From: an uncultured Chloroflexia bacterium
GTDB lineage: Bacteria > Chloroflexota > Limnocylindria > Limnocylindrales > CSP1-4
Length of the DNA: 64,000 bases
Assembly: GCA_963746845.1 (NCBI GenBank)
Contig: CAVVCZ010000005.1
Span: 416,001-480,000, forward strand
Direction of reading: 5' to 3'
The notes below the pieces were generated by a model. It searched no databases. It saw only the letters and a program-made list of their open reading frames with translations, and was not told the origin of the DNA. This document shows positions 12,162 through 63,954 of this stretch, piece after piece. Position 1 is the stretch's first letter. Each line of letters begins with the position of its first letter. The position numbers and the translations under genes were made by a program.

Positions 12162-12167
12162 GCACCT

Positions 12168-51363: not shown

Positions 51364-52011
51364 TCAGGGCATGTCCTTGAGGATCGACGCCGCATGGTCG
51401 TCGTCCTTGGCCGAGACGAACAGCATCGCGTCGCCGTGGAAGTAGACGTAGGTGCTCCCGGACGACTCGTCGGTCACGTAGACGTCCTTGCCGCCGACCG
51501 ACTTCTGCGTTGCGGTCTGGCCGGACTTCTGGGCGGCCTGGATCATCGCGTTCTTCAGCGTGTTCTCGTCGACGCCCTGGACCCGCAGGATCCCGGCCGT
51601 GCAGTCCGCGTCGGCGGCGATCGCGATCGCGAACGTCACGTCGTTGACCGTCTTGCCGATGGCCTTGAGCGCATCGATCATGTCGCTCTGGCCGGACTGC
51701 GCGAACGCCGCGCCGGTCACGCTCGCCTTCGTCGACGTCTTGCCACACATCGTCCCGGGGAGGAGGGCCTCGAGGTCCTTGACCTCGCTCGGGAGCGAGA
51801 AGCCGGGGACGGGCTCGCTCGGGGCGGCGACGCTCGGCTCGGCCGCGCTCGGCTCGGCGACGCTCGGCGCGGCGACCGACGGCGCCGCCGCGGACGGCAC
51901 CACGGCGGCCTCGCTGTTCGAGGGCGACGGGCTGGCGCCACCGGAACAGGCACTCAGCACCACGGCCATTGCGACGGAGGCAAGCCCTCCGACGATGGTT
52001 CGGCGAACCAT
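51364..52011 (-). CDS. Hypothetical lipoprotein with PS(V/A)A(A/E) repeats
   Basis: GGAGG RBS, lipobox LSAC, low-complexity linker, Cys pair. Confidence 0.75.
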   Translation of the reverse strand: MVRRTIVGGLASVAMAVVLSACSGGASPSPSNSEAAVVPSAAAPSVAAPSVAEPSAAEPSVAAPSEPVPGFSLPSEVKDLEALLPGTMCGKTSTKASVTGAAFAQSGQSDMIDALKAIGKTVNDVTFAIAIAADADCTAGILRVQGVDENTLKNAMIQAAQKSGQTATQKSVGGKDVYVTDESSGSTYVYFHGDAMLFVSAKDDDHAASILKDMP

Positions 52012-52081
52012 GGAATATTCCTCCCCGAGGCGAGCCATCGGCGCGGGTCCAGCGAGCACTGGACGGGACGATGGACGGAGT

Positions 52082-53194
52082 CTAGCCATCTCCCGTCAAC
52101 GTGCCATCGGGCGCAGCCCCGACGGTCGTATCACGCTCGAACGGCCCCTGTGGATGGGCCGCTCCGAGCCGGAGCGCCCGGTCGATGTCGGCCTCGGAGG
52201 CCACGCCCTCGGCCACCGCGATGCCTGCCTCTGCGTCGATCGCGGCCAGGATCCGGGCCCGGATCGCCGCGGCGTCGGCCGCGGGTGCGGGCGCGTCCCG
52301 GAACCGGTCCGAGACCGCCGTCACCCGGCCGGCCTCGTAGCGATAGAACCCCTGACCGGTCTTGCGGCCGAGCTGCCGGGCCTCGACGAGCTCGGTCTGG
52401 ATCGGCGACGGACGGAGCCGGTCCGGCCGGCCTAGCCCTTCCCAGATCGCGGCGGCGGCGGCGGTCGTGACGTCGATCCCCGTCAGGTCCATCAGCTCGA
52501 AGGGGCCGAGGGGGAAGCCGCCGTCACGCATCGCGTCGTCGATCGCCTCGACGCCGGCCCGGCCCTCCTCGAGGATCCGGAGGGCCTCGATCGTGAACGG
52601 GCGGTTCACCCGGTTGACGATGAAGCCGGGGGTGTCCGCCGACCGGACCGCCGTTCGACCCCACGACTCGACGAGGCGCGTCAAATCGGCCACGACGGCC
52701 GGGTCGGTCGCGGGTGTCGGGACGACCTCGACCAGGCGCATGACCGGTGCCGGGTTGAAGAAGTGGAGCCCGAGGACGCGCTCCGGGCGCCGCGTGGCCG
52801 ACGCGATCGAAGCGATCGAGAGCGCGCTCGTGTTCGTCGCGAGGACCGTCCCGGGGTCGGCGACGCCGTCGAGGGTCCGGAAGATCGTCTGCTTCAGCTC
52901 GAGATCCTCGAGCGCCGCCTCGACGACGACGTCCGCTTCGTCGCCCAGCGCCTCGAGGACGTCGGTCTCGCGGAGCCGGGCGATCCGCTCGGCGACCCAG
53001 TCGTCGATCCCCGCCGGGTCCCCGACGAGCTTCGCCGCGCGGCGGGTCAGCCCGCCGGCGATCCGGTCCCGGCCCCGTCGCAGGGCCGGCTCGTCGACAT
53101 CGTGCAGGACGGTCTCGTGACCGGCTTCCAGGGCAAGTTGGGCGATCCCGGCGCCCATCACGCCTGCCCCCACGACGCCGATCACCTCGTTCAT
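52082..53194 (-). CDS. paaH: 3-hydroxyacyl-CoA dehydrogenase (PaaH-like)
   Basis: GAGVMGAGIA, VEA..E.L..K, TNTS, HFFNPAP, PGFIVNR. Confidence 0.88.
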   Translation of the reverse strand: MNEVIGVVGAGVMGAGIAQLALEAGHETVLHDVDEPALRRGRDRIAGGLTRRAAKLVGDPAGIDDWVAERIARLRETDVLEALGDEADVVVEAALEDLELKQTIFRTLDGVADPGTVLATNTSALSIASIASATRRPERVLGLHFFNPAPVMRLVEVVPTPATDPAVVADLTRLVESWGRTAVRSADTPGFIVNRVNRPFTIEALRILEEGRAGVEAIDDAMRDGGFPLGPFELMDLTGIDVTTAAAAAIWEGLGRPDRLRPSPIQTELVEARQLGRKTGQGFYRYEAGRVTAVSDRFRDAPAPAADAAAIRARILAAIDAEAGIAVAEGVASEADIDRALRLGAAHPQGPFERDTTVGAAPDGTLTGDG

Positions 53195-53652
53195 CAGATC
53201 GGTTTGAAGGCCTCGAACGGATTTCGGCAATCGCGGCAGTAGAAGAGGGATCGACAGAGGGTCGGGCCGAAGGCGCTGTCCATCGCGACCCGCGACGAGG
53301 CGCAGTACGGGCAGCGGACGTCCGCCGGTTCCGCGGGCGGGGCGATTCCGGCGGCACGGAGCCCGGCATGCCCTGCAGGGGTCAGGCGGTCGGTGGTCCA
53401 CGGGACCGCGAACGTGAAGTCGACCGTGACCGGGCGCCCGAGGCTCGCGAGCGCATCGGTCACCGTCGCGCGGATGACCTCGAGGGCCGGGCACGCGACG
53501 AACGTCGGGAGGAGCTCGATGCGGATCCCGTCATCGTCGACGCGGACGTCGTGGACGAGGCCGAGATCGACGATCGAGACGGTCGGGATCTCGGGGTCGT
53601 GGACCGTCCCGAGGACGTCCGTCACCACTGCCGCCGACACTGGCGCCGTCAT
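53194..53652 (-). CDS. paaD: Phenylacetyl-CoA epoxidase subunit PaaD
   Basis: DPEIP..SIVDLG, PTF..CPA, WTTD, CP.C, FG.T.CR...C..C..PFE.FK. Confidence 0.93.
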   Translation of the reverse strand: MTAPVSAAVVTDVLGTVHDPEIPTVSIVDLGLVHDVRVDDDGIRIELLPTFVACPALEVIRATVTDALASLGRPVTVDFTFAVPWTTDRLTPAGHAGLRAAGIAPPAEPADVRCPYCASSRVAMDSAFGPTLCRSLFYCRDCRNPFEAFKPI

Positions 53653-54485
53653 CACCACGTCGCGCCGACCTCGGACCGGCGAACCATGGTGAACTCGGCG
53701 TGGAGGGCACGGAACGCGTCGGAGTGGGCCGTGCGGGCAGTGCCGGGATCGCGGGTCGGCGGCAGCGGCGCCAGGCCGAGACGCGCGAGCTGCGCGTTCG
53801 CCTCGACGCGCCAGCGCGCCTCGACGGCCGGAAAGGGCTCCGCGATGATCCCGTGCCGGACGAGTGCCGGCTCCCCGGGGAGTGGCGTCAGCACCGTGCC
53901 GGCGTCCGGCCCCATGACGTCGAGCGCCGCGATCAGGCGCCGACGCGGTTCGCCGCCCGCATCCGCGAGCCGCTCGAGCCACGCGTCGACGTGCATCCGG
54001 TGATAGCGCTCCTCGCGCCGGATCTTGGCGACGAGCTCACGGAGCGGCGCGTGCGTCGTGTCCGCGAGGGCCGTCAGACGCGCCGCGTCGGCCGTCTCGT
54101 AGAGCCAGCGCCGGGCGATCGTCGCCGCCCAGTCGCCGCGCGGATGGTCGAGCAGGCGAGCGTGGAGGTAGCCTTCCGGCGGCCGGTCGTAGGCGACCGC
54201 GTCCGCGTCCGGGCCGTCGGCGACCGCGTCCGCGTCCGGGCCGTCGGCGACGAGGTCCGCGAACAGCCCGTACAAGGCCTGGGCATGACCCAGCTCGTCC
54301 TGGGCGAGCGAGCTGATCGCAACGTCCTCCTCGAGGATCGGTCCGATCCCGGTCCACTCGGAGTCGCTGAACCCGATGACGAACTCGTCGTCGGCCATCG
54401 ACAGGAGGAGCACGGCGAGCGCCCGCTCGCGGCCGTCGCCGGCACCGGTGAAGTCCATCGCGATCTTCGGGTACTCCGTCGTCAT
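53652..54485 (-). CDS. paaC: Phenylacetyl-CoA epoxidase subunit PaaC
   Basis: ADD, SEW.G.GP.LEED.A...QDELGHA, KI.REE.YH. Confidence 0.93.
   Translation of the reverse strand: MTTEYPKIAMDFTGAGDGRERALAVLLLSMADDEFVIGFSDSEWTGIGPILEEDVAISSLAQDELGHAQALYGLFADLVADGPDADAVADGPDADAVAYDRPPEGYLHARLLDHPRGDWAATIARRWLYETADAARLTALADTTHAPLRELVAKIRREERYHRMHVDAWLERLADAGGEPRRRLIAALDVMGPDAGTVLTPLPGEPALVRHGIIAEPFPAVEARWRVEANAQLARLGLAPLPPTRDPGTARTAHSDAFRALHAEFTMVRRSEVGATW
54192..54251. repeat. Perfect 27-bp in-frame tandem duplication inside paaC
   Basis: GGCGACCGCGTCCGCGTCCGGGCCGTC x2 (+6 nt); encodes ADGPDADAV twice. Confidence 0.95.
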
Positions 54486-54823
54486 CGATCGCCCGCGTTC
54501 GCCTTCGGCTTCGCCTGCCCCGACTGCTCACGTGCCGCTGCCAGCTTGTCGCGCATGACGTAGCCGCCCGGCTTCTTGAACGACCGATCGAGCGGCGGCT
54601 GGAGGAGGTCCGGATCGGCCAGGTCGTGGATGTCCGCCCGCCGGACGACCCAGAGGTGGACGCTCTCTTGGCGCCGTCCGTACATCTCGCGGGCGTAGTG
54701 GAGGGCGAGCGTGGCATCGGGCGCCATCACCGAACCGCCGTGACGCATCGGGTCGCCGTCCTTCTCCCGGCGGAAGACCTCCCAGGGCTCGAGGACGCCC
54801 GCCGGCGCCGTCGCGTCTGTCAT
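54482..54823 (-). CDS. paaB: Phenylacetyl-CoA epoxidase subunit PaaB
   Basis: WEVF...H.GSV.APD..LAL..ARE.Y.RR.E...LWVV. Confidence 0.92.
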   Translation of the reverse strand: MTDATAPAGVLEPWEVFRREKDGDPMRHGGSVMAPDATLALHYAREMYGRRQESVHLWVVRRADIHDLADPDLLQPPLDRSFKKPGGYVMRDKLAAAREQSGQAKPKANAGDR

Positions 54824-55812
54824 GCGGCGGCTCGGGGCGCCGAGAGAATCGCGTCGCGGACCCACTGCGTGGCGGCCCAGTTGTCGCGGCGGAACTGGAG
54901 CCGCTCCTGGGACATCGGGCCGTGGTTCGTGACGACCGTCCGGAGCTCGTTCCAGTCGGGCTCCGCGTAGCGCCAGTCGCCGGTGGCGACGTCGAGACCC
55001 AGCTCGGGATCGGGCAGCGTCAATCCGAGCTCCCAGATCCGCGGCACGTAGATGCCGAGGAACTCCTGGCGCAGCTCCTCGCTCGTCTTCGCCTTGATCC
55101 GCCAGTGGATGTCACGGTCCTTGGAGCGGTCGCTGCGTGGGCCGTGCATCTGCATCAGCGGGCCCCACCAGCGGTCGAGCGCCTCCTGGATCGCCCCCCG
55201 CTGGGCCGGCGTGCCGGTCGCCATCGTCACGACGACGTCGCGCCCGTGCATGATGTGGACGCTCTCCTCCCAGCAGATCTTCCGCATCGTCCGGGCATAC
55301 GGGGCGTAGCTGCTGTCGCGCAGCGCCTGCTGGGCGACGATCGCCGCCGCGTCCACGAGCCAGGCGATGATCCCGATGTCGGCCCACGACTTCGTCGGGT
55401 AGTGGAAGACGTTGTGGAACTTCGTCTTCCCGTCGAGCAGGTCCTGGATCATCGCCTCGCGCGGCTTGCCGAGGTCTTCGGCGACCCGGTACAGCAGCTG
55501 GGCGTGCCCGACCTCGTCCTGGACCTTCGCGGTGAGGGCGAGCTTCCGGCGGAGGGTCGGCGCCCGCATGATCCATTCGCGCTCGGGCAGGACGCCCATG
55601 AGCTCGCTGTTCGCGTGCATCTCGACGAACCGGAGCACCTGGGTCCGGTACTCGTCGGGCATCCAGTCGGACGCCTCGACCTTGCCGCCGCCCGTCACGT
55701 GCTCCTCGAAGTGCCGGTAGCGCTCGTCGTGATCGAGCGCCTCGTCGTTGAACGGCAGCTGGCTGCGCTCGCGGGCCGGCAGAACAGGATCGAGTGCGAG
55801 CGGATCGGTCAT
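54820..55812 (-). CDS. paaA: Phenylacetyl-CoA epoxidase subunit PaaA
   Basis: DWMPDEYR, HANSE, APTLRRK, KVQDEVGH, WLVD, IC.EES.H. Confidence 0.95.
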   Translation of the reverse strand: MTDPLALDPVLPARERSQLPFNDEALDHDERYRHFEEHVTGGGKVEASDWMPDEYRTQVLRFVEMHANSELMGVLPEREWIMRAPTLRRKLALTAKVQDEVGHAQLLYRVAEDLGKPREAMIQDLLDGKTKFHNVFHYPTKSWADIGIIAWLVDAAAIVAQQALRDSSYAPYARTMRKICWEESVHIMHGRDVVVTMATGTPAQRGAIQEALDRWWGPLMQMHGPRSDRSKDRDIHWRIKAKTSEELRQEFLGIYVPRIWELGLTLPDPELGLDVATGDWRYAEPDWNELRTVVTNHGPMSQERLQFRRDNWAATQWVRDAILSAPRAAA

Positions 55813-56399
55813 CGGTGGTCCTCCGAGAGGGCGCGGAGCGCGAGGTCGACGTAGTGGTCGGCGATCCGGTCGGCGGTCAGGCGGCCGTCCGGGCGGTACC
55901 AGGTCGCGATGCCGTTGAGGGCGGTGAGGACGAAGGTCGCCGCGAGGGCGACATCGGTCGCCCCGAAGGCCCCGACCGCGATCCCATCCTCGATCGTCGT
56001 CCGGAACCTGGCTTCGTAGGCGTCCCGGCGAGCGGCGATGGCGGCCCGGCGCTCTGCGGAGAGGTGGCGCCATTCCGTGAGGAAGACGCTCGAGCGCTGC
56101 GGGTCGGCGGTCACGACCTCGACGTGGGCCTCCACGAGGGCGGCCAGCCGGTCGACGGGGTCCGTGCCGGCGGCTTCGGCGACGGCCGACTCGGCCGCCC
56201 CCTCGAAGGTCGTCGCCGCCCGATCGACGATCGACCAGAGGACATCCTCCTTCGACGCGACGTGGGCGTAGAGGCTGGCCCCCTGGATGTCGAGCGCCTT
56301 CGCGATGTCGCGGACGCTCGTCGCCGCGTAACCGTTCGCATGGAACAGCTCGCTAGCCACGTCGTCGATCTCGCGGCGTCGCGTTCCGGTCTCGATCAT
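55809..56399 (-). CDS. paaR: TetR family regulator (PaaR-like)
   Basis: LF...GY.ATSVRDIA..L.I...SLY.H..SKE; first gene of the paa operon. Confidence 0.85.
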   Translation of the reverse strand: MIETGTRRREIDDVASELFHANGYAATSVRDIAKALDIQGASLYAHVASKEDVLWSIVDRAATTFEGAAESAVAEAAGTDPVDRLAALVEAHVEVVTADPQRSSVFLTEWRHLSAERRAAIAARRDAYEARFRTTIEDGIAVGAFGATDVALAATFVLTALNGIATWYRPDGRLTADRIADHYVDLALRALSEDHR

Positions 56400-56405
56400 C
56401 TGGCC

Positions 56406-56434
56406 ATGATCCAACCGAACGTTCGTTAGGTCAA
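56406..56434 (-). promoter_or_regulatory. paa operon promoter with PaaR-type operator
   Basis: TTGACC-17 nt-GATCAT-6 nt-ATG; near-palindrome CCAACCGAACGTTCGTTAGG (56411-56430) resembling ACCGA-N4-TCGGT. Confidence 0.8.
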
Positions 56435-56476: not shown

Positions 56477-57151
56477 CTACGGGAAGTGAACGCTGTCGAG
56501 CATTGCCTGCAGCGCCGCGCGATCGTCCGGGTCTGCCGCGGCATGCACGCCGAGGTCTCGCATCCCGAATAGATAGGCCACGTGGTCGTGGACCGTGATC
56601 GCGTTGTTGATCAGGATCCCGCAGTTCCATTCGAGAAGAACGCCCGGCTCGCCGCCGATCCTGATGTTGTGCTGGGCTTCCGGGGCGTCCGGGCACGTGT
56701 CGCCGTGGTACTTGACCGTGTCCGAGATCGTCTGGCTGACTACATCGGCCAACCCGCCCTTCGTCGGTGCAACGTTGGCCCACGCGCTCCTCGCGGAGGA
56801 GTCGATGAACTGGTCGGACTCGCGAGCGTCATGGCTCAGGCCCGACACCCCGTCCCAGGCCACGGTGGCCTGGATCGTCGTCCAGTTCGCCGGCACCGTC
56901 AGGGAGTACCCGTACAGGGCCGACGTGAACGTCGTCGGAACCGTCGCCGCGCTTGGAGCCGCCGTCGGCGTCGGCGTCGGATTCGACGGCGCGATGGTCG
57001 GTTTCGGGCTTGCGGCGGCGGACGACGGCAGGGCCGACGCGTCCGAACCGGCGTCGGAAGATGAACTCGCCCCGGCCCCGCCGCCCGAGCACGCGCCGAG
57101 CGCCAGCACGACGGCGGCCAACGCCGTCATTCGTGTCCTGGTTGTCATCAT
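56477..57151 (-). CDS. Hypothetical lipoprotein (PsbP-like fold possible)
   Basis: GGAGG RBS, lipobox LGAC, Ser/Pro linker, F.S.LYGYS..VP.W, ends LDSVHF. Confidence 0.75.
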   Translation of the reverse strand: MMTTRTRMTALAAVVLALGACSGGGAGASSSSDAGSDASALPSSAAASPKPTIAPSNPTPTPTAAPSAATVPTTFTSALYGYSLTVPANWTTIQATVAWDGVSGLSHDARESDQFIDSSARSAWANVAPTKGGLADVVSQTISDTVKYHGDTCPDAPEAQHNIRIGGEPGVLLEWNCGILINNAITVHDHVAYLFGMRDLGVHAAADPDDRAALQAMLDSVHFP

Positions 57152-57255
57152 CGCCTCCAGGTGGATCGTCCAGCGGCCGGGGACTTGCTCTCCGTCCTCG
57201 AGACCGCACTTCCCGACCGACCTTCGCCGGACCGTGTCCAGCCCCGCCCCACGCT

Positions 57256-57277
57256 CGCTCTATCCGCCCTCTACGGC
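57256..57277 (-). promoter_or_regulatory. Candidate SARP-binding direct repeat upstream of the lipoprotein gene
   Basis: CGCTCTA-N4-CCCTCTA-CGGC, 11-bp period. Confidence 0.5.
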
Positions 57278-57289
57278 GGTCCGCCCATG

Positions 57290-60200
57290 TCAGAGGCCGC
57301 ACGGGCCGACGTCGGGGCCGAACGTTCGGGCCGCGTCGACGCGGTCTTCGGGAACGCACGGGACATCGATCGCGCCGGCGACGATCCGAGCACCAAGTGT
57401 CTCGAGACGCGGACGGAGGTCGTCGATGAACCCGCCGCTGTACGAGAGGGCAACGCCCTGGGAGGCGAGGTCGAAGATGCGGGTGCCAGAACGAAACTCG
57501 CCCTTCGCGAATTCCTTCAGCAAGGTGTAGACGGCCAGGTCCTGGTGGAGGACCACCGACGTCAGGATGTGGCTGCGCCACGCGTCCGGATCGACCGCGC
57601 CAGTCAAGGATCGGACCGTCTCGAACTGGTCGCTGTCGACGCCGATCGCCCAAAGTTGCCGGCCGGGCCGGGACATCGTCGTTGCCGCGTCGAAGACGCC
57701 GATGCCGGACCCGCCGGCAGCGTGGAAGATGACGTCGGCACCGGCGTCATACATTGCGCGGGCCGCGTCTCGGGCGCCCATCGGATTGTCGAACGCGCGA
57801 TGGAAATCGGCTCGCGACAAGTACGTCGAGAGGATCCGCACCTCCGGATCGATGCTCCGCGCTCCGGCCTCGAACCCCGCCTGGAATCTCCACAGATACG
57901 GGTGGTCGAGGCCCCCGATGAAGCCGATCACCCTCCCGTTGCTCGTCAGGGCCGCGGCCGCTCCGGCGAGGAACGACCCTTCCTTCGTGGCGAACGCGAT
58001 CGTCGACACATTCGGCGCCACGACCTTCGCGTCGACGACGAAACGCGTCGCCGGGTAGTCGTGAATGACCGGCCGGACGTCGTCGACGACGGCTCCCGAG
58101 ACGATGATGAGCTCGGCGCCTTCGGCTGCCAGGCTCCGGAGCTCCGTCGCGGCCCCCTCGCTCTCGTCGTACAGGCGCTCCTTGCCGGCGAGGCTGAAGT
58201 CGGCAACCGCGCGATCGAACCCGTCCTCATTGAGGTCGTCGAGGGCGGCCACGCCGGGCTTCAACAGGGCCACGCGCGGGACATGGGCGATCGCCGTCGC
58301 CCAGACGCCATAGCCAACCGCGCCGCCGAGCAAGGCAATCGCGATCACAAGGGCGACCAGCCGGATCCGCGCGCGGCCCTCGAGCCGTCGGTTCGTGTCG
58401 CGTCGCGCGGCCTCCTCGCGCTGCTCGAGATCGCGCCGAGCGACGCCCGCGTCGAGGAACGCTCGTTCACGGTCGTTCAGGTGGAGGACACCCTCCCGGC
58501 TCAGCGTCTCGAACTCGGCCAGTCGCCCACCCGCAAGGAGGTAGTCCGGGTCGCGCCCGGACAGCTCCCATTCCTCGACCGCACCTGCAAACGCCTCGTG
58601 GCGTCTCAGGGCACTTCGGTGTCGGTCGATCCAGCCGGCGAGTCGTTCCCACTCCCGGAAGAGCGCCTCATGGGCGACCTCGACCATCGCCTTGCCCGTG
58701 ACCATGTCGCGATCGAACGAGAGGAGACGATGGCGCCCGAATGCCCCGAGCACCTCGGATAGCACGACCGGATCGAGGTCCAATCCGGTCAGGTCGGAGA
58801 GGGGGACTCGCTGCCGCGAGTCGACCGGGCCGCCGCCCAGCCGGACGAGGCGAAGGAACACCTGCATCGCGGCCCGCTGCTCATCGGGGCTCAACGCGGC
58901 GTACAACCCTTCGGCTCGTCTCGAGAGGATCCCGTTCAGGCCACCGAGGGCGCGGTAGCCGGAGAGGGTGAGGCCGGCCGGCGCCCGCTGATCGAACAGC
59001 TCGGTGAGGGCGTACTGAAGGAGGGGCAGCGCGCTGGATCGATCGGCGGTCTCGGCGACGATCTCGGCGACCAGAGCCGGCTCCACGGGCACGCCGACCC
59101 GCGCCGCGGGACCGACGATTGCCGCCTCGAGCTCGGTCCGGGTCATCGGCAACACGTTCACGACCGCGGGAATGAACACCTCGGCGAACGGCGGGTCGTT
59201 GAGGGGTCGGTCGTAGAAGTCGGCCCGGAGCGCGAGGACGACGACGAGCTGGCCCTCCGGCTCCGCGACGGCGGCGGCGAGCGCACCGAGGAACCGCCGC
59301 CGGACAGGCTCGTCAGTGACCGAGAAGACCTCCTCGAACTGATCGATGGCCAGGACCAGCCGCCCGTCGTCCGGCATGGTCCGAAGGGCCGGCGGACCCG
59401 AGCCCGCCGCCCGTTCGTCGAGCAGCTGCGCGAGCCCGACCGGCAGGCCCGCAATCTTCGAGACCACGGCCTCGACCTGCTCCAGCGGGTGCGGGCCCGG
59501 GATGAACGGTGCGATGAGCCACCGTTCCGATCCGGGGATCGCCCCCGCCCGCAGGCTGCGCAGCAGGCCGGCCGCCAGGACGCTCGACTTCCCCGATCCC
59601 GACGGCCCGACGAGGGCGATCAGGCGCGACCCCTCCCGGAGTCGATCGAGCAGCCTCGTCAGGAGCTCCTCTCGTCCGAAGTAGTCGGCCGCGTCGGATT
59701 CGGCGAAGGGCCGCAGGCCCTTGTACGGATTGCGCGACTCGCGGGGGTCGGCCGCGAGGTCGGCGGGCACCATGAGTGCCGGGTCGTGGACCAGGATCCG
59801 CTCGTGCATCCGCTGGATCGGCGGGGACGGCTCGAGACCCAGCTCTTCGTCGAGGATGGCCCGGAGTCGTTCGTACGACCGCAGGGCCTCGGCATGTCGC
59901 CCGGATCGGTACAGCGCCAGCATCAGCAGCTCGCGGGACCGTTCCCGCATCGGATCCTCGCGGATGGCCGAATCGAGAAGCGAGATCACGTCGGCCGCCC
60001 GGCCGGATGTCAGCTCCGCGGATGCCAGGGCCTCGATGCCGTCGAGGTGCACGTCGTGCAACCGACGAATCTGGGGTTGGGCGAACTCGTCGTAGGCGAA
60101 GTCGGACAGAGGCGGACCGCGCCACAGGTCCAGGGCGGCGCGGACGATGGCCGCGCCGTCGTCGCGCTCGCCCGCCTCGATCCTGCGCGTTCCGTCCTCG

Positions 60201-60520
60201 ATCAGTCGCTCGAACCGGCGGGCGTCGATGGCGTCCGGGTCGGCCCCCAGCATGTAGCCGGGTGGACGCGTGACGATGAGGCGATCGCCGGCGAATGGCT
60301 CGAGCGTCTTCCGGAGCTCGGAGACGTAGATCTGGATCGAATGCAGGGCGGTCCGTGGAGGGCTGTCCCCCCACAACAGGTCGATCAACCGGTCTGCCGG
60401 GACGATCTCCCCGACGTGCAGGAGGAGGATGGCCAGGACGGCCCGCTGCTTGGGCGGACCCAGCTCGGCCCGCGCCCCGTCGGTCCCCGCCTCGAGTGTC
60501 CCGAGGATCCGGAACTGCAT
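57290..60520 (-). CDS. SARP-type (OmpR-HTH + BTAD) regulator fused to nSTAND NTPase, TM helix and extracellular Bmp-family solute-binding domain
   Basis: FRILG.L...PKQRAVLA.L; LWRGPPL, DP.RE...LMLALYRSGR; NPYKGLRPF, GPSGSGKSS, IDQFEEVF, LPLLQYAL, EVAHEAL; TM LVALVIAIALLGGAVGYGVW; EGSFLAG, IGFIGG, GADVIFHAAGGSG, AIGVDSDQ. Confidence 0.88.
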   Translation of the reverse strand: MQFRILGTLEAGTDGARAELGPPKQRAVLAILLLHVGEIVPADRLIDLLWGDSPPRTALHSIQIYVSELRKTLEPFAGDRLIVTRPPGYMLGADPDAIDARRFERLIEDGTRRIEAGERDDGAAIVRAALDLWRGPPLSDFAYDEFAQPQIRRLHDVHLDGIEALASAELTSGRAADVISLLDSAIREDPMRERSRELLMLALYRSGRHAEALRSYERLRAILDEELGLEPSPPIQRMHERILVHDPALMVPADLAADPRESRNPYKGLRPFAESDAADYFGREELLTRLLDRLREGSRLIALVGPSGSGKSSVLAAGLLRSLRAGAIPGSERWLIAPFIPGPHPLEQVEAVVSKIAGLPVGLAQLLDERAAGSGPPALRTMPDDGRLVLAIDQFEEVFSVTDEPVRRRFLGALAAAVAEPEGQLVVVLALRADFYDRPLNDPPFAEVFIPAVVNVLPMTRTELEAAIVGPAARVGVPVEPALVAEIVAETADRSSALPLLQYALTELFDQRAPAGLTLSGYRALGGLNGILSRRAEGLYAALSPDEQRAAMQVFLRLVRLGGGPVDSRQRVPLSDLTGLDLDPVVLSEVLGAFGRHRLLSFDRDMVTGKAMVEVAHEALFREWERLAGWIDRHRSALRRHEAFAGAVEEWELSGRDPDYLLAGGRLAEFETLSREGVLHLNDRERAFLDAGVARRDLEQREEAARRDTNRRLEGRARIRLVALVIAIALLGGAVGYGVWATAIAHVPRVALLKPGVAALDDLNEDGFDRAVADFSLAGKERLYDESEGAATELRSLAAEGAELIIVSGAVVDDVRPVIHDYPATRFVVDAKVVAPNVSTIAFATKEGSFLAGAAAALTSNGRVIGFIGGLDHPYLWRFQAGFEAGARSIDPEVRILSTYLSRADFHRAFDNPMGARDAARAMYDAGADVIFHAAGGSGIGVFDAATTMSRPGRQLWAIGVDSDQFETVRSLTGAVDPDAWRSHILTSVVLHQDLAVYTLLKEFAKGEFRSGTRIFDLASQGVALSYSGGFIDDLRPRLETLGARIVAGAIDVPCVPEDRVDAARTFGPDVGPCGL

Positions 60521-60604
60521 CGACTGCCTCGCTGGCGCCGCGACTGTGGCCGATGGTGGGCGCGGCCACACGCGCGGTCAACTCCGGGACAGGCTGGTGA
60601 CGGG

Positions 60605-60626
60605 CGTTCTAGGGACGCTCTACGGC
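60605..60626 (-). promoter_or_regulatory. Candidate SARP-binding direct repeat upstream of the BTAD gene
   Basis: CGTTCTA-N4-CGCTCTA-CGGC, 11-bp period; matches the 57256-57277 box. Confidence 0.5.
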
Positions 60627-60766
60627 CGACGGACGCGGTTGGTGTGCAGGTCCGCACGCTTCGCACGCGAGGCCGATCGCGATCCGGAGTACGCTTGTGG
60701 CCTGACCGGTCGGTGTACCGGCGTCCGCTGTGGACGCCCTCGGCCCTTCTTGAGCAAGGACCGACC

Positions 60767-61750
60767 ATGGTGACCGACGACTCCGTGCGCGCCACTGCGC
60801 TCACGCCAGCTCCCACTGTGGCATCCCTCGCGGATGATCGTGCCCTCCTCGAGGAGCTCGAACCCGAGGCCGCCCGCCTGTACGACCGCCACGCGAAGGT
60901 CGCCCAGGAGTGGTTCCCCCACGACTACATCCCGTACCGGCTCGGGCGCGACTTCGACAAGGAGCCCTGGACGCCCGACCAGCCGCGGCTGACCGGCGTC
61001 GCCCAGATCAGCTTCGAGGTCAACCTCCTGACCGAGGACAACCTGCCCTCCTACCACCGCCTGATCCACGGGATGTTCGGATCCGGCGACGGCGCGTGGA
61101 TCAACTGGATCGGGCGCTGGACGGCCGAGGAGGGCCGCCACGCGATCGTCCTCCGCGACTACCTCACGGTGACCCGGAACCTCGACCCGATCGCCCTCGA
61201 GCGCGGCCGGATGACGCAGCTCCAGCAGGGCTACGACCGCGAATCGATCGACACGCTCCGCGGCCTCGCCTATGTCGCGTTCCAGGAGCTCGCAACGCGG
61301 ATCTCGCATCGGAACACGGGGCGCTACTCACAGGACCCGGTCGCCGACAAGATCATGACGAGGATCGCGGCCGACGAGAACCTCCACATGGTCTTCTACC
61401 GCGACATCCTCGCCGCGGCGCTGAAGATCCAGCCGTCGCGAGCGGTCCAGGCGATCGTCGCGGAGGTCCTCGCGTTCGAGATGCCCGGCAACGGAATCCC
61501 CGGGTTCCTCCGGAAGGCCGCCGCGATCGCGCGGGCCGGGATCTACGACATCCGGATCCACCGCGACGAGGTCCTGCTGCCGATCCTCAACCACTGGCGG
61601 ATCTTCGAGCTGACCGGGCTCGATGCGGCCGCCGAGGACGCCCGCCGGGTCCTCGCCGAGCATCTCGACAAGCTCGAGGTCGCCGCGAAGCGGTTCGAGG
61701 AGAAGATGGCCCTGACCGGGGACCGCGAGCGACTGATCCGCGTCGGCTGA
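60767..61750 (+). CDS. Acyl-ACP desaturase (DesA-like, di-iron)
   Basis: W.PHDYIP, LTEDNLPSY, WTAEEGRH, FQELATRISH, DENLH; AAGGA RBS. Confidence 0.95.
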   Translation: MVTDDSVRATALTPAPTVASLADDRALLEELEPEAARLYDRHAKVAQEWFPHDYIPYRLGRDFDKEPWTPDQPRLTGVAQISFEVNLLTEDNLPSYHRLIHGMFGSGDGAWINWIGRWTAEEGRHAIVLRDYLTVTRNLDPIALERGRMTQLQQGYDRESIDTLRGLAYVAFQELATRISHRNTGRYSQDPVADKIMTRIAADENLHMVFYRDILAAALKIQPSRAVQAIVAEVLAFEMPGNGIPGFLRKAAAIARAGIYDIRIHRDEVLLPILNHWRIFELTGLDAAAEDARRVLAEHLDKLEVAAKRFEEKMALTGDRERLIRVG

Positions 61751-61822
61751 CGACAGAGGTCCGTCGACGGCCCGCCCGCCCTCGTAGGATTGGCCGACCA
61801 GCCGATCAGACACGAGGACCTG

Positions 61823-63130
61823 ATGGCCGAACCCCTGACCATCCTGTTCATGCCCGAGTCGGCGTACGGGCCGACGAACAACTGCATCGGGATCGGCGAC
61901 GTGCTCCGGCGCCGCGGGCACCGGGTCGTGTTCGCCGCGGAGGCGTCGTGGGCCGGCCGGCTCGAGCCGCTCGGGTTCGTCGAGGATCTGGTCGACCTCG
62001 CGCCGCCCCCGCCTTCGGACGCACCGGCCCAGGACGCCGGTCAGTTCTGGAAGGACTTCATCCGCGACACCGCGCCGGAGTTCCGCAAGCCGACGATCCA
62101 GCAGCTCGACACGTTCATGGTCCCGACGTGGCAGGCCCTGATCGACGGAGCGAGGTACTGCGAGCCGCACCTGCGCGAGATCATCGCCCGCCAGGGGCCG
62201 GACGTCATCGTCGAGGACAACGTCGTCGCCTTCCCGGCGCTCGAGACGGCCGGCAAGCCGTACGTCCGGATGGTGTCGTGCAATCCGCTCGAGATCCGCG
62301 GGCCGGGGATCGCGCCGACCTACTCGGGCCTGCCGGCCGATGACCCGTCGGAATGGGAAGCCTTCCGCGAGGAATATGACCGCACGCATCGGCCGACCTG
62401 GGAGGCCTTCGACGCCTGGTGCCGCGAGCATGGCACGGAGCCGCTCCCCGAGCTGGAGTTCGAGCATCCGTCGCGCGACCTGAACATTTACGTCTACCCG
62501 CAAGTCGCCGATTACGTCGACCGCCGCCCGCTCGATCCGCGGCTGTGGCAGCGGCTGGACTCCTCGGTCCGGGCGACCGACGCCGCCTTCGAGCTCCCGG
62601 AGGCGATTGCAGACCGGCCTGCCGGGTCCGGGCTCGTCTACCTGTCGCTCGGCTCGCTCGGCAGCGCGGACGTCTCGCTGATGCGGCGGCTGGTCGAGGT
62701 CCTCGGCGACACGCCCCACCGGTACATCGTCTCCAAGGGGCCCCAGCACGCGGACTACGACCTCGCGCCGAACATGTGGGGTGCGGAGTTCCTGCCGCAG
62801 ACCTCGATCATCCCGCTCGTCGACCTCGTGATCACCCACGGCGGCAACAACACGACGACCGAGGCATTCCACTTCGGCAAGCCGATGGTCGTGCTGCCGC
62901 TGTTCTGGGACCAGTACGACAACGCCCAGCGGGTCGACGAGACCGGGTTCGGGGTCCGGCTGCCGACGTACGCGTTCGAGCCGGCCGACCTGGCGGGCGC
63001 GATCGACGGCCTCCTGACCGACGGCGAGCTGCGGACGAGGATGGCCGGGATCGGGGCGGAGATCCGGGCACGGGACGGGGTCGCGAAGGCCGCGGCCGCG
63101 ATCGAGTCGGTGGGGCTGGCGCACCGGTGA
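61823..63130 (+). CDS. Family 1 (UDP/macrolide-type) glycosyltransferase
   Basis: VYLSLGS, FLPQ, ITHGGNNT..EA...GKP.VVLP...DQ. Confidence 0.92.
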   Translation: MAEPLTILFMPESAYGPTNNCIGIGDVLRRRGHRVVFAAEASWAGRLEPLGFVEDLVDLAPPPPSDAPAQDAGQFWKDFIRDTAPEFRKPTIQQLDTFMVPTWQALIDGARYCEPHLREIIARQGPDVIVEDNVVAFPALETAGKPYVRMVSCNPLEIRGPGIAPTYSGLPADDPSEWEAFREEYDRTHRPTWEAFDAWCREHGTEPLPELEFEHPSRDLNIYVYPQVADYVDRRPLDPRLWQRLDSSVRATDAAFELPEAIADRPAGSGLVYLSLGSLGSADVSLMRRLVEVLGDTPHRYIVSKGPQHADYDLAPNMWGAEFLPQTSIIPLVDLVITHGGNNTTTEAFHFGKPMVVLPLFWDQYDNAQRVDETGFGVRLPTYAFEPADLAGAIDGLLTDGELRTRMAGIGAEIRARDGVAKAAAAIESVGLAHR

Positions 63131-63954
63131 GTCCCGCCGCCACGGCGACACCCGTCCACGAGATGCGCGCCGTCCGCGCGACCCGCTACGTCACCGCGTT
63201 CCGCGAGGGCGGGTCGCTGCCCGGGCTCGTCGAGGCGGACGATGACGGGATGTACGTCGTGAAGTTCCGCGGCGCCGGGCAGGGCCCGCGCGTCCTCGTC
63301 GCGGAGTGGCTCGCCGGCGAGATCGCCCGCGCGCTCGGGCTGCTCGTCCCGGACATCGTCTCCGTCGATCTCGTCAAGGCGATCGCGGACCCCGAGCCCG
63401 ACCCGGAGATCCACGACCTGCTCGTCGCGAGCGTTGGGCGCAACATCGGCCTCGACTTCCTGCCGGGCTCGCTGACCTTCAACCCGGCGGTCGACCGGGT
63501 GGCCGATCCGGACTGGGCGGCCGCGGTGGTCTGGCTCGACGGGCTGGTGACGAACCCCGATCGCTCGCCGAAGAACCCGAACCTGCTGACCTGGGGCGGC
63601 CGGACCTGGCTGATCGACCACGGGGCGTCCCTGTACATCCACCACACCTGGCGCGCTCCATCCGCGCACGCGCGTCGGCCGCACGCCGAGCGGCTGTCCG
63701 ACCACGTCCTGCTGCCGTTCGCGTCGTCGATCGCCGACACCGATGCCCGTCTGGCTTCGCTGCTGACGGCCGAGCTGCTGGAGTCGCTGGTCGCGGCCAT
63801 CCCCGATGACTGGCTGGCGCCGGATCCGGTGATCGGGTCCGCCGCCGATCAGCGGCTGGCATACGTCGCCTACCTCCGAGGCCGGTTGGAGGCGCCGCGG
63901 CCGTTCGTCGAGGACGCCGATCGCCTCCGCCTCGCCGCCGGGGCAGCTGCGTGA
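63127..63954 (+). CDS. HipA-like kinase
   Basis: REGGSLP, YVVKFRGAGQG, NPDRS..NPNLL, LIDHG; GTGA overlap. Confidence 0.88.
   Translation: MSPAATATPVHEMRAVRATRYVTAFREGGSLPGLVEADDDGMYVVKFRGAGQGPRVLVAEWLAGEIARALGLLVPDIVSVDLVKAIADPEPDPEIHDLLVASVGRNIGLDFLPGSLTFNPAVDRVADPDWAAAVVWLDGLVTNPDRSPKNPNLLTWGGRTWLIDHGASLYIHHTWRAPSAHARRPHAERLSDHVLLPFASSIADTDARLASLLTAELLESLVAAIPDDWLAPDPVIGSAADQRLAYVAYLRGRLEAPRPFVEDADRLRLAAGAAA

What the first reader, a model, noticed from the sequence alone, without database searches (positions are those of the whole stretch)
56477..60626. Candidate one-component transmembrane STAND signalling system: SARP-BTAD-nSTAND-TM-Bmp receptor plus target lipoprotein
Seen: one ~1076-aa protein joins an AfsR/SARP DNA-binding + BTAD module, an intact STAND-type NTPase (NPYKGL, GPSGSGKSS, IDQFEE), a single TM helix and a C-terminal Bmp/PnrA-like solute-binding domain. 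Known: such NTPases usually end in WD40/TPR sensor repeats, and Bmp domains are normally free-standing purine-nucleoside-binding lipoproteins of ABC importers. Inference: an NLR-like, membrane-tethered activator that senses an extracellular nucleoside-like ligand and signals across the membrane with no kinase or response regulator. The co-oriented downstream orphan lipoprotein is the likely output. By eye the block also has more A/T-ending codons than its flanks.
Basis: partly seen in the sequence, partly recalled or inferred. Interest (0 to 1): 0.82.

Follow-up and report, generated by a model that had tools for sequence, protein, structure and literature searches.

The report
Membrane-spanning SARP–STAND regulator with its operator
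This gene encodes a transcription activator that spans the membrane, with a nutrient-binding-type sensor outside the cell and an NLR-like ATPase switch inside, and a conserved DNA repeat marks its own promoter and that of the next gene as its probable targets.

Summary
Window 57290..60523 (-) encodes a 1077-aa protein: Trans_reg_C, BTAD, nSTAND1 (E 2.6e-106), one TM helix, then a Bmp/PnrA-like domain (E 1.5e-37). The basic flank lies on the N-terminal side of the TM helix. A conserved Cys pair occurs only after the helix, which puts Bmp outside the cell. The fusion is not a chimera: 79 of the 120 listed homologues carry all four Pfam families.

New here is a direct repeat, TAGAG-N6-TAGAR, with an 11-bp period (the classical SARP site format). 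It occurs exactly twice in the 3.56-Mb genome, about 85 nt upstream of the regulator and 17 nt after its stop, upstream of the lipoprotein gene. Four other genomes and most metagenomic family loci show the same layout. There are 0 hits in 65 control SARP loci (416 kb). This supports autoregulation and the downstream gene as target.

The target gene is not conserved. It is replaced by unrelated small exported proteins in other genomes. A nucleoside ligand is not supported, because the N-lobe half of the PnrA pocket is lost. GC3 is ordinary, at the 25th percentile. No description was found in the literature searched. I rate it a new variant of a known kind.

The parts
60607..60622 (-). Upstream operator candidate: direct repeat TAGAGCGTCCCTAGAA (two TAGAR cores, 11-bp period), about 85 nt upstream of the regulator ATG. 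It lies in the divergent intergenic region shared with a fatty-acid desaturase gene.
   Evidence: one of only 2 matches in the genome and window, with 0 of 100 shuffles giving any match; 22.5 bits, second-best PWM hit in the genome. A site lies at the same position in G050, G081, G171 and G108 and at -75 to -100 in 11 of 14 metagenomic family loci.
60576..60581 (-). TTGACC, a -35-like hexamer 25 nt downstream of the upstream repeat (read by eye).
   Evidence: a TTGACC recurs 25-40 nt after the repeat in the regulator-upstream regions of WIN, L045, L046, L052, L053, L056, L058 and L063. No consistent -10 element was found.
57290..60523 (-). Regulator gene, 1077 aa from ATG 60523 (an in-frame GTG at 60571 would give 1093 aa).
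60248..60454 (-). OmpR/PhoB-type winged-helix DNA-binding domain (Trans_reg_C), residues 40-108.
   Evidence: E 1.3e-10. The model superposes on AfsR with TM-score 0.91-0.92 (normalised to the target) and 40% identity over SARP.
59792..60229 (-). BTAD domain, residues 115-260.
   Evidence: E 1.8e-42. AfsR 8k60 at E 1.3e-59 and EmbR 2fez at E 1.6e-56.
58544..59728 (-). nSTAND1 NTPase module, residues 282-676. Walker A GPSGSGKSS is at 59582..59608. Walker B LVLAIDQFEE is at 59330..59359. An invariant His634 in 'VAHEAL' (58667..58675) is a candidate MHD/HD-type latch.
   Evidence: and for the invariant columns. Reading His634 as the latch is inference by analogy with the HD motif of AfsR-like proteins (bioRxiv 10.64898/2026.09.02.748808, section 8).
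58292..58360 (-). Single transmembrane helix, residues 738-760. It continues a long predicted helix (700-751) coming from the STAND module.
   Evidence: KD 2.38, 9 K/R in the 25 residues before the helix and 2 after; secondary structure of the AF2 model.
57359..58165 (-). Bmp/PnrA-like two-lobe solute-binding domain, residues 803-1071 (the fold starts near residue 766). The Cys1072/Cys1091 pair lies at the C-terminus.
   Evidence: S. pneumoniae PnrA at E 1e-30 and TmpC at 1.6e-28. Foldseek against 2fqw, TM-score 0.82 (normalised to the target); the Cys pair.
57258..57273 (-). Downstream operator candidate: direct repeat TAGAGGGCGGATAGAG, 17 nt after the regulator stop and about 107 nt upstream of the lipoprotein ATG.
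   Evidence: best PWM hit in the genome, 25.6 bits. The equivalent site follows the stop codon in G050, G081, G171, G108, L053 and L054, with variant forms in G185 and L060.
56477..57151 (-). Putative target gene: a 224-aa lipoprotein (lipobox LGAC, Pro/Ala/Ser-rich linker) with a C-terminal PsbP-like alpha/beta domain and no Pfam family.
   Evidence: AF2 pLDDT 82.6. CyanoP/PsbP at E 1e-5; also M. tuberculosis Apa, LpqN, MTC28 and DcrB.

Best explanation
The gene encodes a single-polypeptide, membrane-spanning signal transducer.

Shown by sequence analysis: the cytoplasmic part is an AfsR-type SARP DNA-binding and activation module (wHTH plus BTAD) followed by an intact nSTAND1 NTPase. A long helix runs into one TM segment. 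The C-terminal Bmp/PnrA-fold solute-binding domain is predicted to lie outside the membrane.

Inferred mechanism:
1. Binding of a still unknown ligand closes the two-lobe Bmp domain.
2. The change passes through the TM helix and stalk helix and releases autoinhibition of the STAND core.
3. The STAND core exchanges ADP for ATP and multimerises in the plane of the membrane.
4. This brings SARP domains together on tandem TAGAG heptamer repeats spaced 11 bp apart.
5. Two such sites exist in this genome, at the regulator's own promoter and in front of the downstream lipoprotein gene. The predicted regulon is therefore autoregulation plus one small exported protein.

Across the family, the receptor and its operator are conserved, while the target gene is swapped among unrelated small exported or membrane-anchored proteins.
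For: Architecture. All four Pfam domains score over their cut-offs. 79 of the 120 listed homologues have all four families. An ESM-Atlas cluster of 93 members carries BTAD, nSTAND1 and Bmp. Full-length orthologues occur in G050, G081, G171, G185 and an Acidimicrobiales MAG.

Intact switch. Walker A and B, NPYKGL and His634 are invariant in 26 sequences.

Topology. There is one strong TM helix. The N-terminal flank has 7-10 K/R against 0-2 in the C-terminal flank in 25 of 26 members. 21 of 26 members have no Cys before the TM helix and exactly two after it.

Sensor fold. PnrA and TmpC match by sequence and by structure model.

Portable module. The same nSTAND1-TM-Bmp unit is fused to a class III cyclase instead of SARP in P0029 and P0038. 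SARP-nSTAND1-TM is joined to SBP_bac_1 or a Cache-like ectodomain in relatives.

Operator:
- TAGA-N7-TAGA occurs 2 times in 7.1 M genome positions, both flanking this gene on its strand. The window gives 2 hits, and 0 of 100 shuffles give any.
- A PWM built from 21 sites of other genomes ranks these two sites first and second in the genome (25.6 and 22.5 bits; the next hit is 16.9).
- The same two-site layout appears in 4 of 6 other genomic orthologue loci. A variant TTGAGCG repeat follows the stop codon in a fifth.
- 15 metagenomic family loci (74.5 kb) hold 17 hits. 65 other SARP loci (415.7 kb) hold 0.
- A heptamer plus 4-nt spacer, giving an 11-bp unit, is the classical SARP site (PMC10972967, passages).
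- In L062 and L063 an extra site points at a divergent small exported gene.
Against: - No experiment and no RNA data are available. No RNA run is listed, so binding of the SARP domain to the repeat, the sign of regulation and the transcription starts are all inferred.
- No consistent -10 element was found next to the repeats. At the regulator's own promoter the repeats sit upstream of a -35-like TTGACC rather than over it.
- Some family loci lack a site. There is none upstream in L054, L065, L047 or L009, and only a distant one in L064. There is none downstream in L058, L064 or L065.
- The genome-wide count of 2 is close to the chance expectation of about 2.4 for TAGA-N7-TAGA. Location, not number, carries the argument.
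- The ligand is unknown, and the N-lobe of the pocket is not PnrA-like.
- Three of the four SARP-Bmp proteins without STAND have no TM helix, so a related Bmp domain can work in the cytoplasm.
- How a STAND core would multimerise while tethered to a membrane has no solved precedent that I found.
Confidence: 0.62

Rival explanations
1. Closed feedback loop or co-sensor. The downstream exported protein is not a mere output. It acts back on the ectodomain, either as a ToxS-like extracytoplasmic partner or, for the repeat-containing types, as a precursor of a secreted ligand. The two TAGAG promoters would then form an autoinduction circuit.
For: Every target seen next to a site has an N-terminal signal, lipobox or TM segment, so it would share the compartment of the Bmp domain. 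Two target types recur in separate lineages and consist of short tandem peptide units: GYPLHGGLAGPS repeats in L044, L048, L060 and L063, and AWSxRLTGQA repeats in L046 and L053. Both the regulator and the target carry the site, which is the wiring of a positive feedback loop.
Against: The targets are unrelated in sequence and fold, which is hard to reconcile with one conserved Bmp surface. Homologues of the window's lipoprotein occur in 28 other loci with neither regulator nor site. There is no direct evidence of binding.
Confidence: 0.15
2. The protein is a conflict or immunity STAND, the context in which nSTAND1 was defined. It would survey the envelope for invaders rather than take part in nutrient or signal sensing.
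For: nSTAND1 was named in predicted counter-invader systems (PMC8195603, passages). It occurs in DGR-diversified putative antigen sensors (PMC10907252, passages). The variable partner gene next to a conserved core is reminiscent of such systems.
Against: The N-terminal module is a transcription activator, or a cyclase in variants, and not a nuclease, TIR or peptidase effector. There are no PADLOC matches. The genome holds a single copy. The ectodomain is a small-molecule-binding fold. The neighbours are ordinary metabolic genes.
Confidence: 0.05
3. The two TAGAG repeats are not operators. They are the boundaries of a mobile or recombining gene cassette, or the binding sites of some other factor.
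For: The two copies lie in direct orientation and bracket exactly one gene.
Against: The motif is conserved between orthologues of 38-83% identity while the flanking DNA is not. No recombinase is nearby. In L062 and L063 a further copy faces a divergent small gene, as a promoter element would. Presence of the motif tracks the identity of the SARP domain, with 0 hits in 65 loci holding more distant SARPs. The 7+4 format is that of SARP sites.
Confidence: 0.05
4. The Bmp domain has lost ligand binding and serves only as an anchoring or dimerisation module. The signal would then enter through the cytoplasmic STAND core.
For: The first 44 of 301 Bmp profile positions are unmatched. There is no aromatic residue at the place of the first stacking Phe, and Lys260 (TmpC numbering) is Leu here.
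Against: The ectodomain is among the best-conserved and best-modelled parts of the protein (pLDDT about 90). The cleft residues F927, D979 and D981, and GFIGG and HILTS, are invariant or nearly so. The domain is retained with three different N-terminal contexts.
Confidence: 0.1

Closest known systems
AfsR and other 'large SARPs' (SARP-NB-ARC-TPR) of Streptomyces
   Same: It has an N-terminal wHTH plus BTAD module. Against AfsR 8k60 the profile search gives E 1.3e-59, and the model superposes with TM-score 0.91-0.92 (normalised to the target) at 40% identity. This module is followed by a STAND-type NTPase. The candidate binding site is a heptamer direct repeat with an 11-bp period.
   Different: The NTPase is nSTAND1, not NB-ARC. 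The C-terminal TPR sensor is replaced by a helical stalk, a TM helix and an extracytoplasmic Bmp domain. Published classifications that I read list small, medium and large SARPs and SARP-LAL, and none is membrane-spanning (PMC10972967 passages, where 'transmembrane' occurs 0 times; bioRxiv 10.64898/2026.09.02.748808 section 8).
ToxR/CadC-type membrane-bound one-component regulators
   Same: The order of parts is the same: a cytoplasmic OmpR-type wHTH at the N-terminus, one TM helix and an extracytoplasmic sensor domain in one polypeptide. The wHTH gives weak profile matches to CadC and ToxR (E 5.7e-4 to 7.3e-4). A small exported protein is encoded just downstream, as toxS is next to toxR (recalled, not from a call).
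   Different: About 480 residues of BTAD, STAND NTPase and stalk sit between the wHTH and the membrane. The sensor is an SBP fold. The downstream gene has its own operator.
PnrA/TmpC, BmpA/BmpD and other Bmp-family ABC substrate-binding lipoproteins
   Same: The fold and the C-lobe cleft residues match (TmpC F186, V-D238, F161 equivalents). The pocket residues come from PMC13325309 and PMC7093131 (passages).
   Different: It has no lipobox and is anchored by an N-terminal TM helix as part of a 1077-aa protein. There are no ABC permease or ATPase genes nearby, unlike the genome's canonical Bmp gene, which sits next to an ABC ATPase. The N-lobe base-binding loop is not conserved. It has a conserved C-terminal Cys pair.
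MalT-type STAND transcription factors
   Same: The logic matches what is described for STANDs: an inducer relieves autoinhibition, the NOD switches from ADP to ATP and the protein multimerises (PMC6468293, abstract in the search listing only).
   Different: Those proteins are soluble, with a cytoplasmic sensor arm. Here the sensor is across the membrane.
SBP-fold sensor domains of transmembrane receptors (for example the periplasmic fructose-binding domain of hybrid two-component system BT1754) and the Bmp-family regulator Med
   Same: Use of SBP-family domains as extracytoplasmic sensors is an established principle (PMC9602780 passages; 2x7x among the structural matches). Med (2hqb, 'transcriptional activator of comK gene') is a Bmp-fold protein with a regulatory role.
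   Different: The output there is a histidine kinase or an indirect effect. Here the output is a STAND NTPase coupled directly to a DNA-binding domain.

Membership tests
SARP (AfsR/SARP family transcriptional activators) | N-terminal OmpR/PhoB-type winged-helix domain (Trans_reg_C) | tested here: met
   Pfam E 1.3e-10, 41.7 bits against a cut-off of 26.2. NCBIfam AfsR model aligned over residues 11-329.
SARP (AfsR/SARP family transcriptional activators) | BTAD domain directly after the wHTH | tested here: met
   Pfam E 1.8e-42, full profile 1-146. AfsR and EmbR structures matched.
SARP (AfsR/SARP family transcriptional activators) | Binds heptameric direct repeats with an 11-bp period at target promoters | tested here: inconclusive
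   Conserved TAGAG-N6-TAGAR repeats are found at the expected places and only with this SARP clade. Binding itself was not testable.
STAND NTPases, nSTAND1 clade (PF20703) | Full-length match to the family profile with Walker A and Walker B | tested here: met
   356.9 bits, profile 1-379 of 379. GPSGSGKSS (all invariant except P323, at least 90%) and D410/F412/E413 invariant.
STAND NTPases, nSTAND1 clade (PF20703) | C-terminal cytoplasmic repeat sensor (WD40, TPR and the like) | tested here: not met
   No repeat domain is present. The module is followed by a stalk helix, a TM helix and Bmp. WD40-ended relatives exist (L025).
STAND NTPases, nSTAND1 clade (PF20703) | NTP-dependent multimerisation | not testable with these tools
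   Needs biochemistry.
Bmp/PnrA ABC substrate-binding lipoproteins (PF02608) | Two-lobe Bmp fold | tested here: met
   Pfam 129.6 bits. PDB sequence matches at 1e-30, and 1e-52 with a profile. Foldseek TM-score 0.71-0.82, normalised to the target.
Bmp/PnrA ABC substrate-binding lipoproteins (PF02608) | Free-standing lipoprotein encoded with ABC permease and ATPase genes | tested here: not met
   It is a domain of a 1077-aa protein behind a TM helix. No ABC genes lie among the neighbours. The genome's canonical Bmp gene does sit beside an ABC ATPase.
Bmp/PnrA ABC substrate-binding lipoproteins (PF02608) | Complete nucleoside pocket (TmpC D27, F36, D108, F161, F186, D238, K260 equivalents) | tested here: not met
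   The F161, F186 and V-D238 equivalents are kept. The K260 equivalent is Leu here, though it is Lys in most family members. The D108 equivalent is not conserved in the family. The region holding D27 and F36 does not align, and no aromatic residue lies there.
ToxR-like membrane-bound one-component regulators | wHTH - single TM - extracytoplasmic sensor in one chain, with no phosphorelay partner | tested here: met
   Domain order and predicted topology. No kinase or response regulator among the neighbours scanned. Topology is predicted, not measured.
Anti-phage / conflict STAND systems | Match to a known defence-system model or a cell-killing effector domain | tested here: not met
   PADLOC: 0 families. 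The N-terminal module is a transcription activator.

The most novel reading that the evidence does not exclude
nSTAND1-stalk-TM-ectodomain is a general, so far undescribed class of transmembrane signal transducer, a 'membrane NLR'. An extracytoplasmic ligand-binding domain (Bmp, SBP_bac_1 or Cache-like) would drive NTP-dependent multimerisation of a STAND core on the inner face of the membrane. That multimerisation would feed interchangeable outputs, either SARP transcription activation or cAMP synthesis. In the SARP-Bmp clade the whole regulon would be the receptor gene plus one rapidly exchanged small exported protein. That protein may close an autoinduction loop by acting back on the ectodomain.
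Probability: 0.3. Interest if true: 0.88.

Novelty: new variant of a known kind. Interest (0 to 1): 0.72.

Why it matters
Known bacterial routes for carrying a signal across the membrane use histidine kinases, chemoreceptors, Ser/Thr kinases, anti-sigma factors, ToxR-like regulators or membrane cyclases. STAND/NLR-type switches are treated as cytosolic.

This family puts a STAND switch directly behind a transmembrane helix and an extracellular solute-binding domain. In the loci searched it comes with a recognisable operator and, in this genome, a predicted regulon of two promoters. That makes it an unusually tractable system for asking how an NLR-like ATPase can be gated from outside the cell. 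One protein, one short DNA site and one reporter would be enough.

It also extends the SARP family beyond antibiotic-cluster regulators in Streptomyces. The family here occurs in uncultured soil and freshwater Actinomycetota, and by database names in Chloroflexota.

Tried and rejected
- The search for related loci on genome contigs with the full-length alignment was swamped by the generic P-loop pattern. It gave only one full-length relative, L009.
- Complex prediction with the Bmp domain (762-1093) and the mature lipoprotein (66-224) returned no verdict (score 0.00, controls not run). This is neither evidence for nor against binding.
- The look-up of sequencing runs listed no RNA holder. Nothing can be said on expression or habitat.
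- A search for a conserved -10 (TANNNT) at a fixed distance from the repeats found none. I therefore do not assign transcription starts.
- I tested whether the lipoprotein is a conserved partner. tblastn found it beside the regulator only in the same-genus genome, 1 of 8 loci searched. 28 other homologue loci (about 3.5 kb each) have no TAGAG or TTGAG repeat and no SARP, STAND or Bmp frame. Two of these 28, L137 (G087) and L156 (G112), come from unpublished genomes; the statement holds for the other 26 without them. Loci of the unpublished G096 and G159 (L023, L024) were not analysed.
- I first read the STAND-less SARP-Bmp proteins as ToxR-like. A hydropathy check showed that only L076 has a TM helix. 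L049, L050 and L061 have none, and L061 keeps an NPYKGL remnant, so it looks like a deletion derivative.
- I rejected the idea that low GC3 marks a foreign block. The genes sit at the 25th-26th percentile of the genome.
- PADLOC gave no match. Pfam gave no family for any of the seven target proteins scanned, apart from a SnoaL_2 match on the second ORF of L047.
- The MAFFT alignment of the sensor with the genome's two canonical Bmp proteins was unreliable in the N-terminal 30 residues. I rely instead on the failure of Pfam and PDB profiles to align that part, and on the absence of aromatic residues there.
- Literature searches for a prior description covered 'nSTAND1', STAND/SARP/BTAD/transmembrane/substrate-binding, SARP/basic membrane/BTAD/NB-ARC, STAND NTPase/transmembrane/periplasmic binding protein/one-component and PF02608/sensor domain/signal transduction. 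None returned a paper describing this architecture.
The supplementary architecture tables of Kaur et al. 2021 (PMC8195603) and of the AfsR-like survey (bioRxiv 10.64898/2026.09.02.748808) could list this architecture, and I could not see them.

Full report
**1. What is there**

The window is G+C-rich (about 0.70). It belongs to a 3.56-Mb, 12-contig genome. On the minus strand an ORF runs 57290..60571, 1093 aa. Alignment with 25 homologues shows that most start at the Met aligned with M17 (MQFRILG).

Pfam finds four domains, all above their curated cut-offs:
- Trans_reg_C, residues 40-108
- BTAD, residues 115-260
- nSTAND1, residues 282-676 (whole profile, E 2.6e-106)
- Bmp, residues 803-1071 (profile 45-298 of 301, E 1.5e-37)

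NCBIfam aligns residues 11-329 with the AfsR model. An invariant His634 also sits in 'VAHEAL'. The downstream co-oriented ORF 56477..57151 encodes a 224-aa protein with a lipobox-like LGAC and no Pfam family.

The other ORFs scanned are as follows:
- On the minus strand beyond the lipoprotein gene: a TetR gene, paaA/B/C-type genes, a 3-hydroxyacyl-CoA dehydrogenase, a thiolase and one ORF (51364..52089) with no Pfam family.
- Divergently upstream: a fatty-acid desaturase and a GT1 glycosyltransferase.
- At 63186..63800 (-): an ORF with no Pfam family.

No kinase, response regulator or ABC transporter gene is among them.

**2. Topology**

One segment, residues 738-760, stands out in hydropathy (2.38, against 1.68 for the next best). 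The 25 residues before it hold 9 Lys/Arg; the 25 after it hold 2. The same asymmetry (7-10 against 0-2) is seen in 25 of 26 family members. The exception is P0065, whose best hydropathy window falls elsewhere.

In 21 of 26 members there is no Cys in the roughly 720 residues before the helix and exactly two after it. These are C1072 in 'VPC' and C1091. I read this as a disulfide in an extracytoplasmic domain, which is inference.

The AlphaFold2 model of the whole protein (mean pLDDT 77.2) gives confident SARP (about 89) and Bmp (about 90) domains. It also shows one continuous helix, 700-751, running from the end of the STAND module into the membrane segment. Topology is predicted, not measured.

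**3. The fusion is real and recurrent**

I searched with the C-terminal 354 residues among proteins of 601-1913 aa. This gave 423 hits at E <= 1e-3 among the 8000 candidates scored. The 120 listed hits break down as follows:
- 79 carry all four Pfam families.
- 5 lack only Trans_reg_C.
- 12 have nSTAND1 plus Bmp. Those I scanned are N-terminally truncated fragments.
- 2 have a class III cyclase domain in place of SARP (P0029, P0038; confirmed).
- 22 are Bmp-only proteins of about 700 aa. Two that I scanned are double-Bmp proteins.

The ESM Atlas holds a 93-member cluster with BTAD, nSTAND1 and Bmp. Sampling of genomes gave these counts:
- Class sample (201 genomes, own genome included): 41 had a match at E <= 1e-50. 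Most of these were SARP-only or other architectures. Besides the window's own genome, full-length same-architecture genes were seen in G050, G081, G171 and G185. G108 has the gene split in two frames, and G189 holds a contig-end piece.
- Phylum sample (401 genomes, own genome included): only the own genus matched at full length, and G080 had partial matches.

Names attached by sources point to Acidimicrobiia-type Actinomycetota and to 'Candidatus Limnocylindria'. I did not determine the taxon of the window.

**4. The module is portable**

nSTAND1-TM-Bmp is joined to a cyclase in P0029 and P0038. In relatives of the same class, SARP-nSTAND1 is followed by other C-terminal parts:
- a TM helix and an SBP_bac_1 domain (L021, L051)
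- a TM helix, a weak dCache_1 match and a second TM helix (L028)
- a TM helix and an unassigned domain (L027)
- soluble WD40 repeats (L025)

Four SARP-Bmp proteins lack the STAND module. Three of them (L049, L050, L061) also lack a TM helix, and one (L076) has one. The Bmp-type domain is thus used as a sensor in several contexts. The membrane-spanning STAND arrangement is not unique to Bmp.

**5. A conserved operator**

The two intergenic regions flanking the regulator share a direct repeat of two TAGAR cores 11 bp apart. One is TAGAGCGTCCCTAGAA at 60607-60622 (-). The other is TAGAGGGCGGATAGAG at 57258-57273 (-). Four tests bear on it.

- *Occurrence in the genome.* The pattern occurs exactly twice in the whole genome on both strands. 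It occurs twice in the window, where none of 100 dinucleotide-preserving shuffles gave a match. From the frequency of TAGA alone, about 2.4 chance pairs are expected genome-wide. It is the location, not the number, that is improbable: both hits lie on the regulator's strand. One is about 85 nt before its ATG. The other is 17 nt after its stop and about 107 nt before the lipoprotein ATG.
- *Orthologous loci.* In the 16-19-kb loci of G050, G081, G171 and G108 the pattern again occurs exactly twice, at the same two places. G185 has TTGAGCG-N4-TTGAGCG just after the stop and none found upstream. L009 has none.
- *Independent PWM.* A PWM built from 21 sites of other genomes and metagenomes ranks the two window sites first and second of 7.1 million positions (25.6 and 22.5 bits). 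The next hit scores 16.9.
- *Metagenomic loci and control.* I fetched 80 metagenomic loci with the SARP part of the protein. I set the family group by SARP identity and architecture, not by the motif: L052-L065 and L067, 15 loci, 74.5 kb. These hold 17 hits. The other 65 loci (415.7 kb) encode SARPs 43-53% identical, most with other C-termini, and hold none.
  - Of the 14 family loci with at least 110 nt of upstream flank, 11 have a site at -75 to -100 on the gene's strand. L054 and L065 have none, and L064 has one only at -703. L057/L058 and L059/L060 are near-duplicates, so about 9 of 12 are independent.
  - Where downstream flank exists, L053 and L054 have a site within 15 nt of the stop. 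L060 has a variant form. L058, L064 and L065 have none.
  - L062 and L063 carry a further site on the opposite strand, facing a divergent small gene.

A heptamer plus a 4-nt spacer, giving 11-bp units, is the classical SARP site (PMC10972967, passages). That review also notes that PimR's repeats do not overlap the -35 box. This matches what I see by eye at the regulator's own promoters, where a TTGACC lies 25-40 nt downstream of the repeats in 8 loci. I found no consistent -10 element. That the SARP domain binds these repeats is inference from co-occurrence.

**6. The target gene**

The lipoprotein is not a conserved partner, however.
- tblastn finds it next to the regulator only in the same-genus genome (73% identity), which is 1 of the 8 loci searched.
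- It has 71 database matches at E <= 1e-3, one of them the window's own protein, and none carries a Pfam family.
- In a class sample of 201 genomes (own included), 36 have a match. The 28 loci from other genomes have no repeat and no regulator within about 1.5 kb.
- Its model (pLDDT 82.6) has a PsbP-like fold. CyanoP matches at E 1e-5 with TM-score 0.65 normalised to the target. The fold is shared with M. tuberculosis Apa, LpqN, MTC28 and with DcrB.

In other genomes the gene behind the site differs:
- A TM-anchored protein made of GYPLHGGLAGPS-type repeats (G081, G108, L060, and divergent in L063).
- A signal-peptide or lipoprotein-type protein with AWSxRLTGQA repeats (G171, L053).
- A 167-aa secreted protein (G185).
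- An 89-aa protein with a hydrophobic N-terminus (L062).

None of these has a Pfam family. All have an N-terminal hydrophobic segment. I did not compute a background rate for that feature. The receptor and operator are therefore conserved, while the regulated gene is exchanged among small envelope proteins.

**7. The ligand**

The closest solved relatives are nucleoside-binding PnrA proteins from S. pneumoniae and T. pallidum. I used the pocket residues given for BmpA, BmpD and TmpC (PMC13325309 and PMC7093131, passages) together with the HMMER alignment to 2fqw. I worked out that the paper numbering equals the chain index plus 15.

- *Kept (C-lobe side).* TmpC F186 corresponds to F927, which is at least 90% conserved. 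V-D238 corresponds to V978-D979. F161 corresponds to an aromatic residue at 896.
- *Changed or variable.* K260 is Leu1008 here and in the two closest homologues, but Lys in most of the family. The D108 position varies.
- *Not alignable (N-lobe).* The N-terminal strand and loop carry TmpC D27 and the first stacking Phe, whose mutation abolishes binding in BmpA. This region is not aligned by Pfam (the profile match starts at position 45) or by a family profile against PDB chains (the alignment starts at position 27). P0001 has no aromatic residue there ('GVAALDDLNED'), unlike the genome's canonical Bmp lipoprotein ('DIGTLNDKNFN').

Bmp-fold proteins also bind riboflavin and other ligands (RfuA 4iil and AtzT 6pi5 among the matches). 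The best NCBIfam Bmp match is a putative B6 binder, far below its cut-off. I conclude that the ligand is unknown and that a purine nucleoside is not supported.

**8. Mechanism and rivals**

The best-supported reading is a one-component transmembrane receptor. Ligand-induced closure of the ectodomain would be relayed by the TM and stalk helix to the STAND core. ADP/ATP exchange and multimerisation of that core is the general STAND scheme (PMC6468293, abstract in the listing only). It would assemble SARP domains on the tandem repeats and so activate the receptor's own gene and the downstream gene.

Only the anatomy, the predicted topology and the operator layout are shown. Every step of signalling is inferred. 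The rivals are:
- a feedback or co-sensor role for the exported protein
- a conflict-system role
- cassette boundaries instead of operators
- a ligand-blind ectodomain

Each is set out with its evidence in the Rival explanations section. The complex prediction gave no verdict.

**9. Composition**

GC3 of the two genes (0.865 and 0.862) is lower than that of several neighbours. It lies at the 25th-26th percentile of 2311 ORFs of the genome. This gives no sign of foreign origin.

**10. Novelty**

The architecture is present in public databases under automatic names. Each part belongs to a known family. SBP-fold sensor domains on transmembrane receptors are an established principle (PMC9602780, passages).

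Five full-text searches found no paper describing a membrane-spanning SARP or STAND regulator with an SBP ectodomain, or its operator. Neither did the SARP review or the AfsR-like survey that I read in part. Supplements were closed and might list the architecture.

I rate it a new variant of a known kind. It comes with a testable operator and a minimal regulon, which make it experimentally attractive.

Noticed in passing
window 50071-56429 (-): A phenylacetate-catabolism-type cluster (two PaaA/PaaC-family genes, PaaB, a 3-hydroxyacyl-CoA dehydrogenase and a thiolase). A TetR-family gene (55809..56429) lies directly downstream of the lipoprotein gene. The cluster is syntenic in the same-genus genome G050.
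   Followed up: partly
window ~60650-63130 (+): A divergent pair: a FA_desaturase_2 gene and a GT1-type glycosyltransferase (61790..63130). The upstream TAGAG repeat lies in the intergenic region shared with this pair, so it could also affect the pair. The pair is conserved only in G050.
   Followed up: partly
G000:C4:981332-982228 (L162) and G000:C4:1304995-1305729 (L163): The genome has two further Bmp-family genes. One is a canonical lipoprotein with the DKNFN loop, encoded next to an ABC ATPase.
   Followed up: partly
L048 (G108:C7) 9378-12621: The orthologue in G108 is read in two overlapping frames (profile 1-646 and 644-1077). This is either a frameshift or a sequencing error. Both TAGAG sites are still present.
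   Followed up: no
L061 548-2470: A 641-aa SARP-Bmp protein keeps the NPYKGL start of nSTAND1 but lacks the rest of the NTPase and the TM helix. It looks like an internal deletion derivative, and its Bmp domain would be cytoplasmic.
   Followed up: partly
L050 (G189:C4), about 135 nt downstream of the SARP-Bmp gene: CTTGAGCG-N3-CTTGAGCG (11-bp period) lies on the strand opposite to the regulator, next to what looks like a tRNA gene. It is the same TTGAGCG heptamer as in G185.
   Followed up: no
G000, several contigs (e.g. C2:83696, C4:1136211): Lower-ranking PWM hits (about 13.5 bits) fall on GTAGCTCAGTGGTAGAGC-type sequences. These look like tRNA D-arm regions, a chance resemblance to the repeat.
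   Followed up: no
L025 (G066:C32): A roughly 1480-aa relative combines SARP, a protein-kinase domain, nSTAND1 and WD40 repeats in one frame.
   Followed up: no
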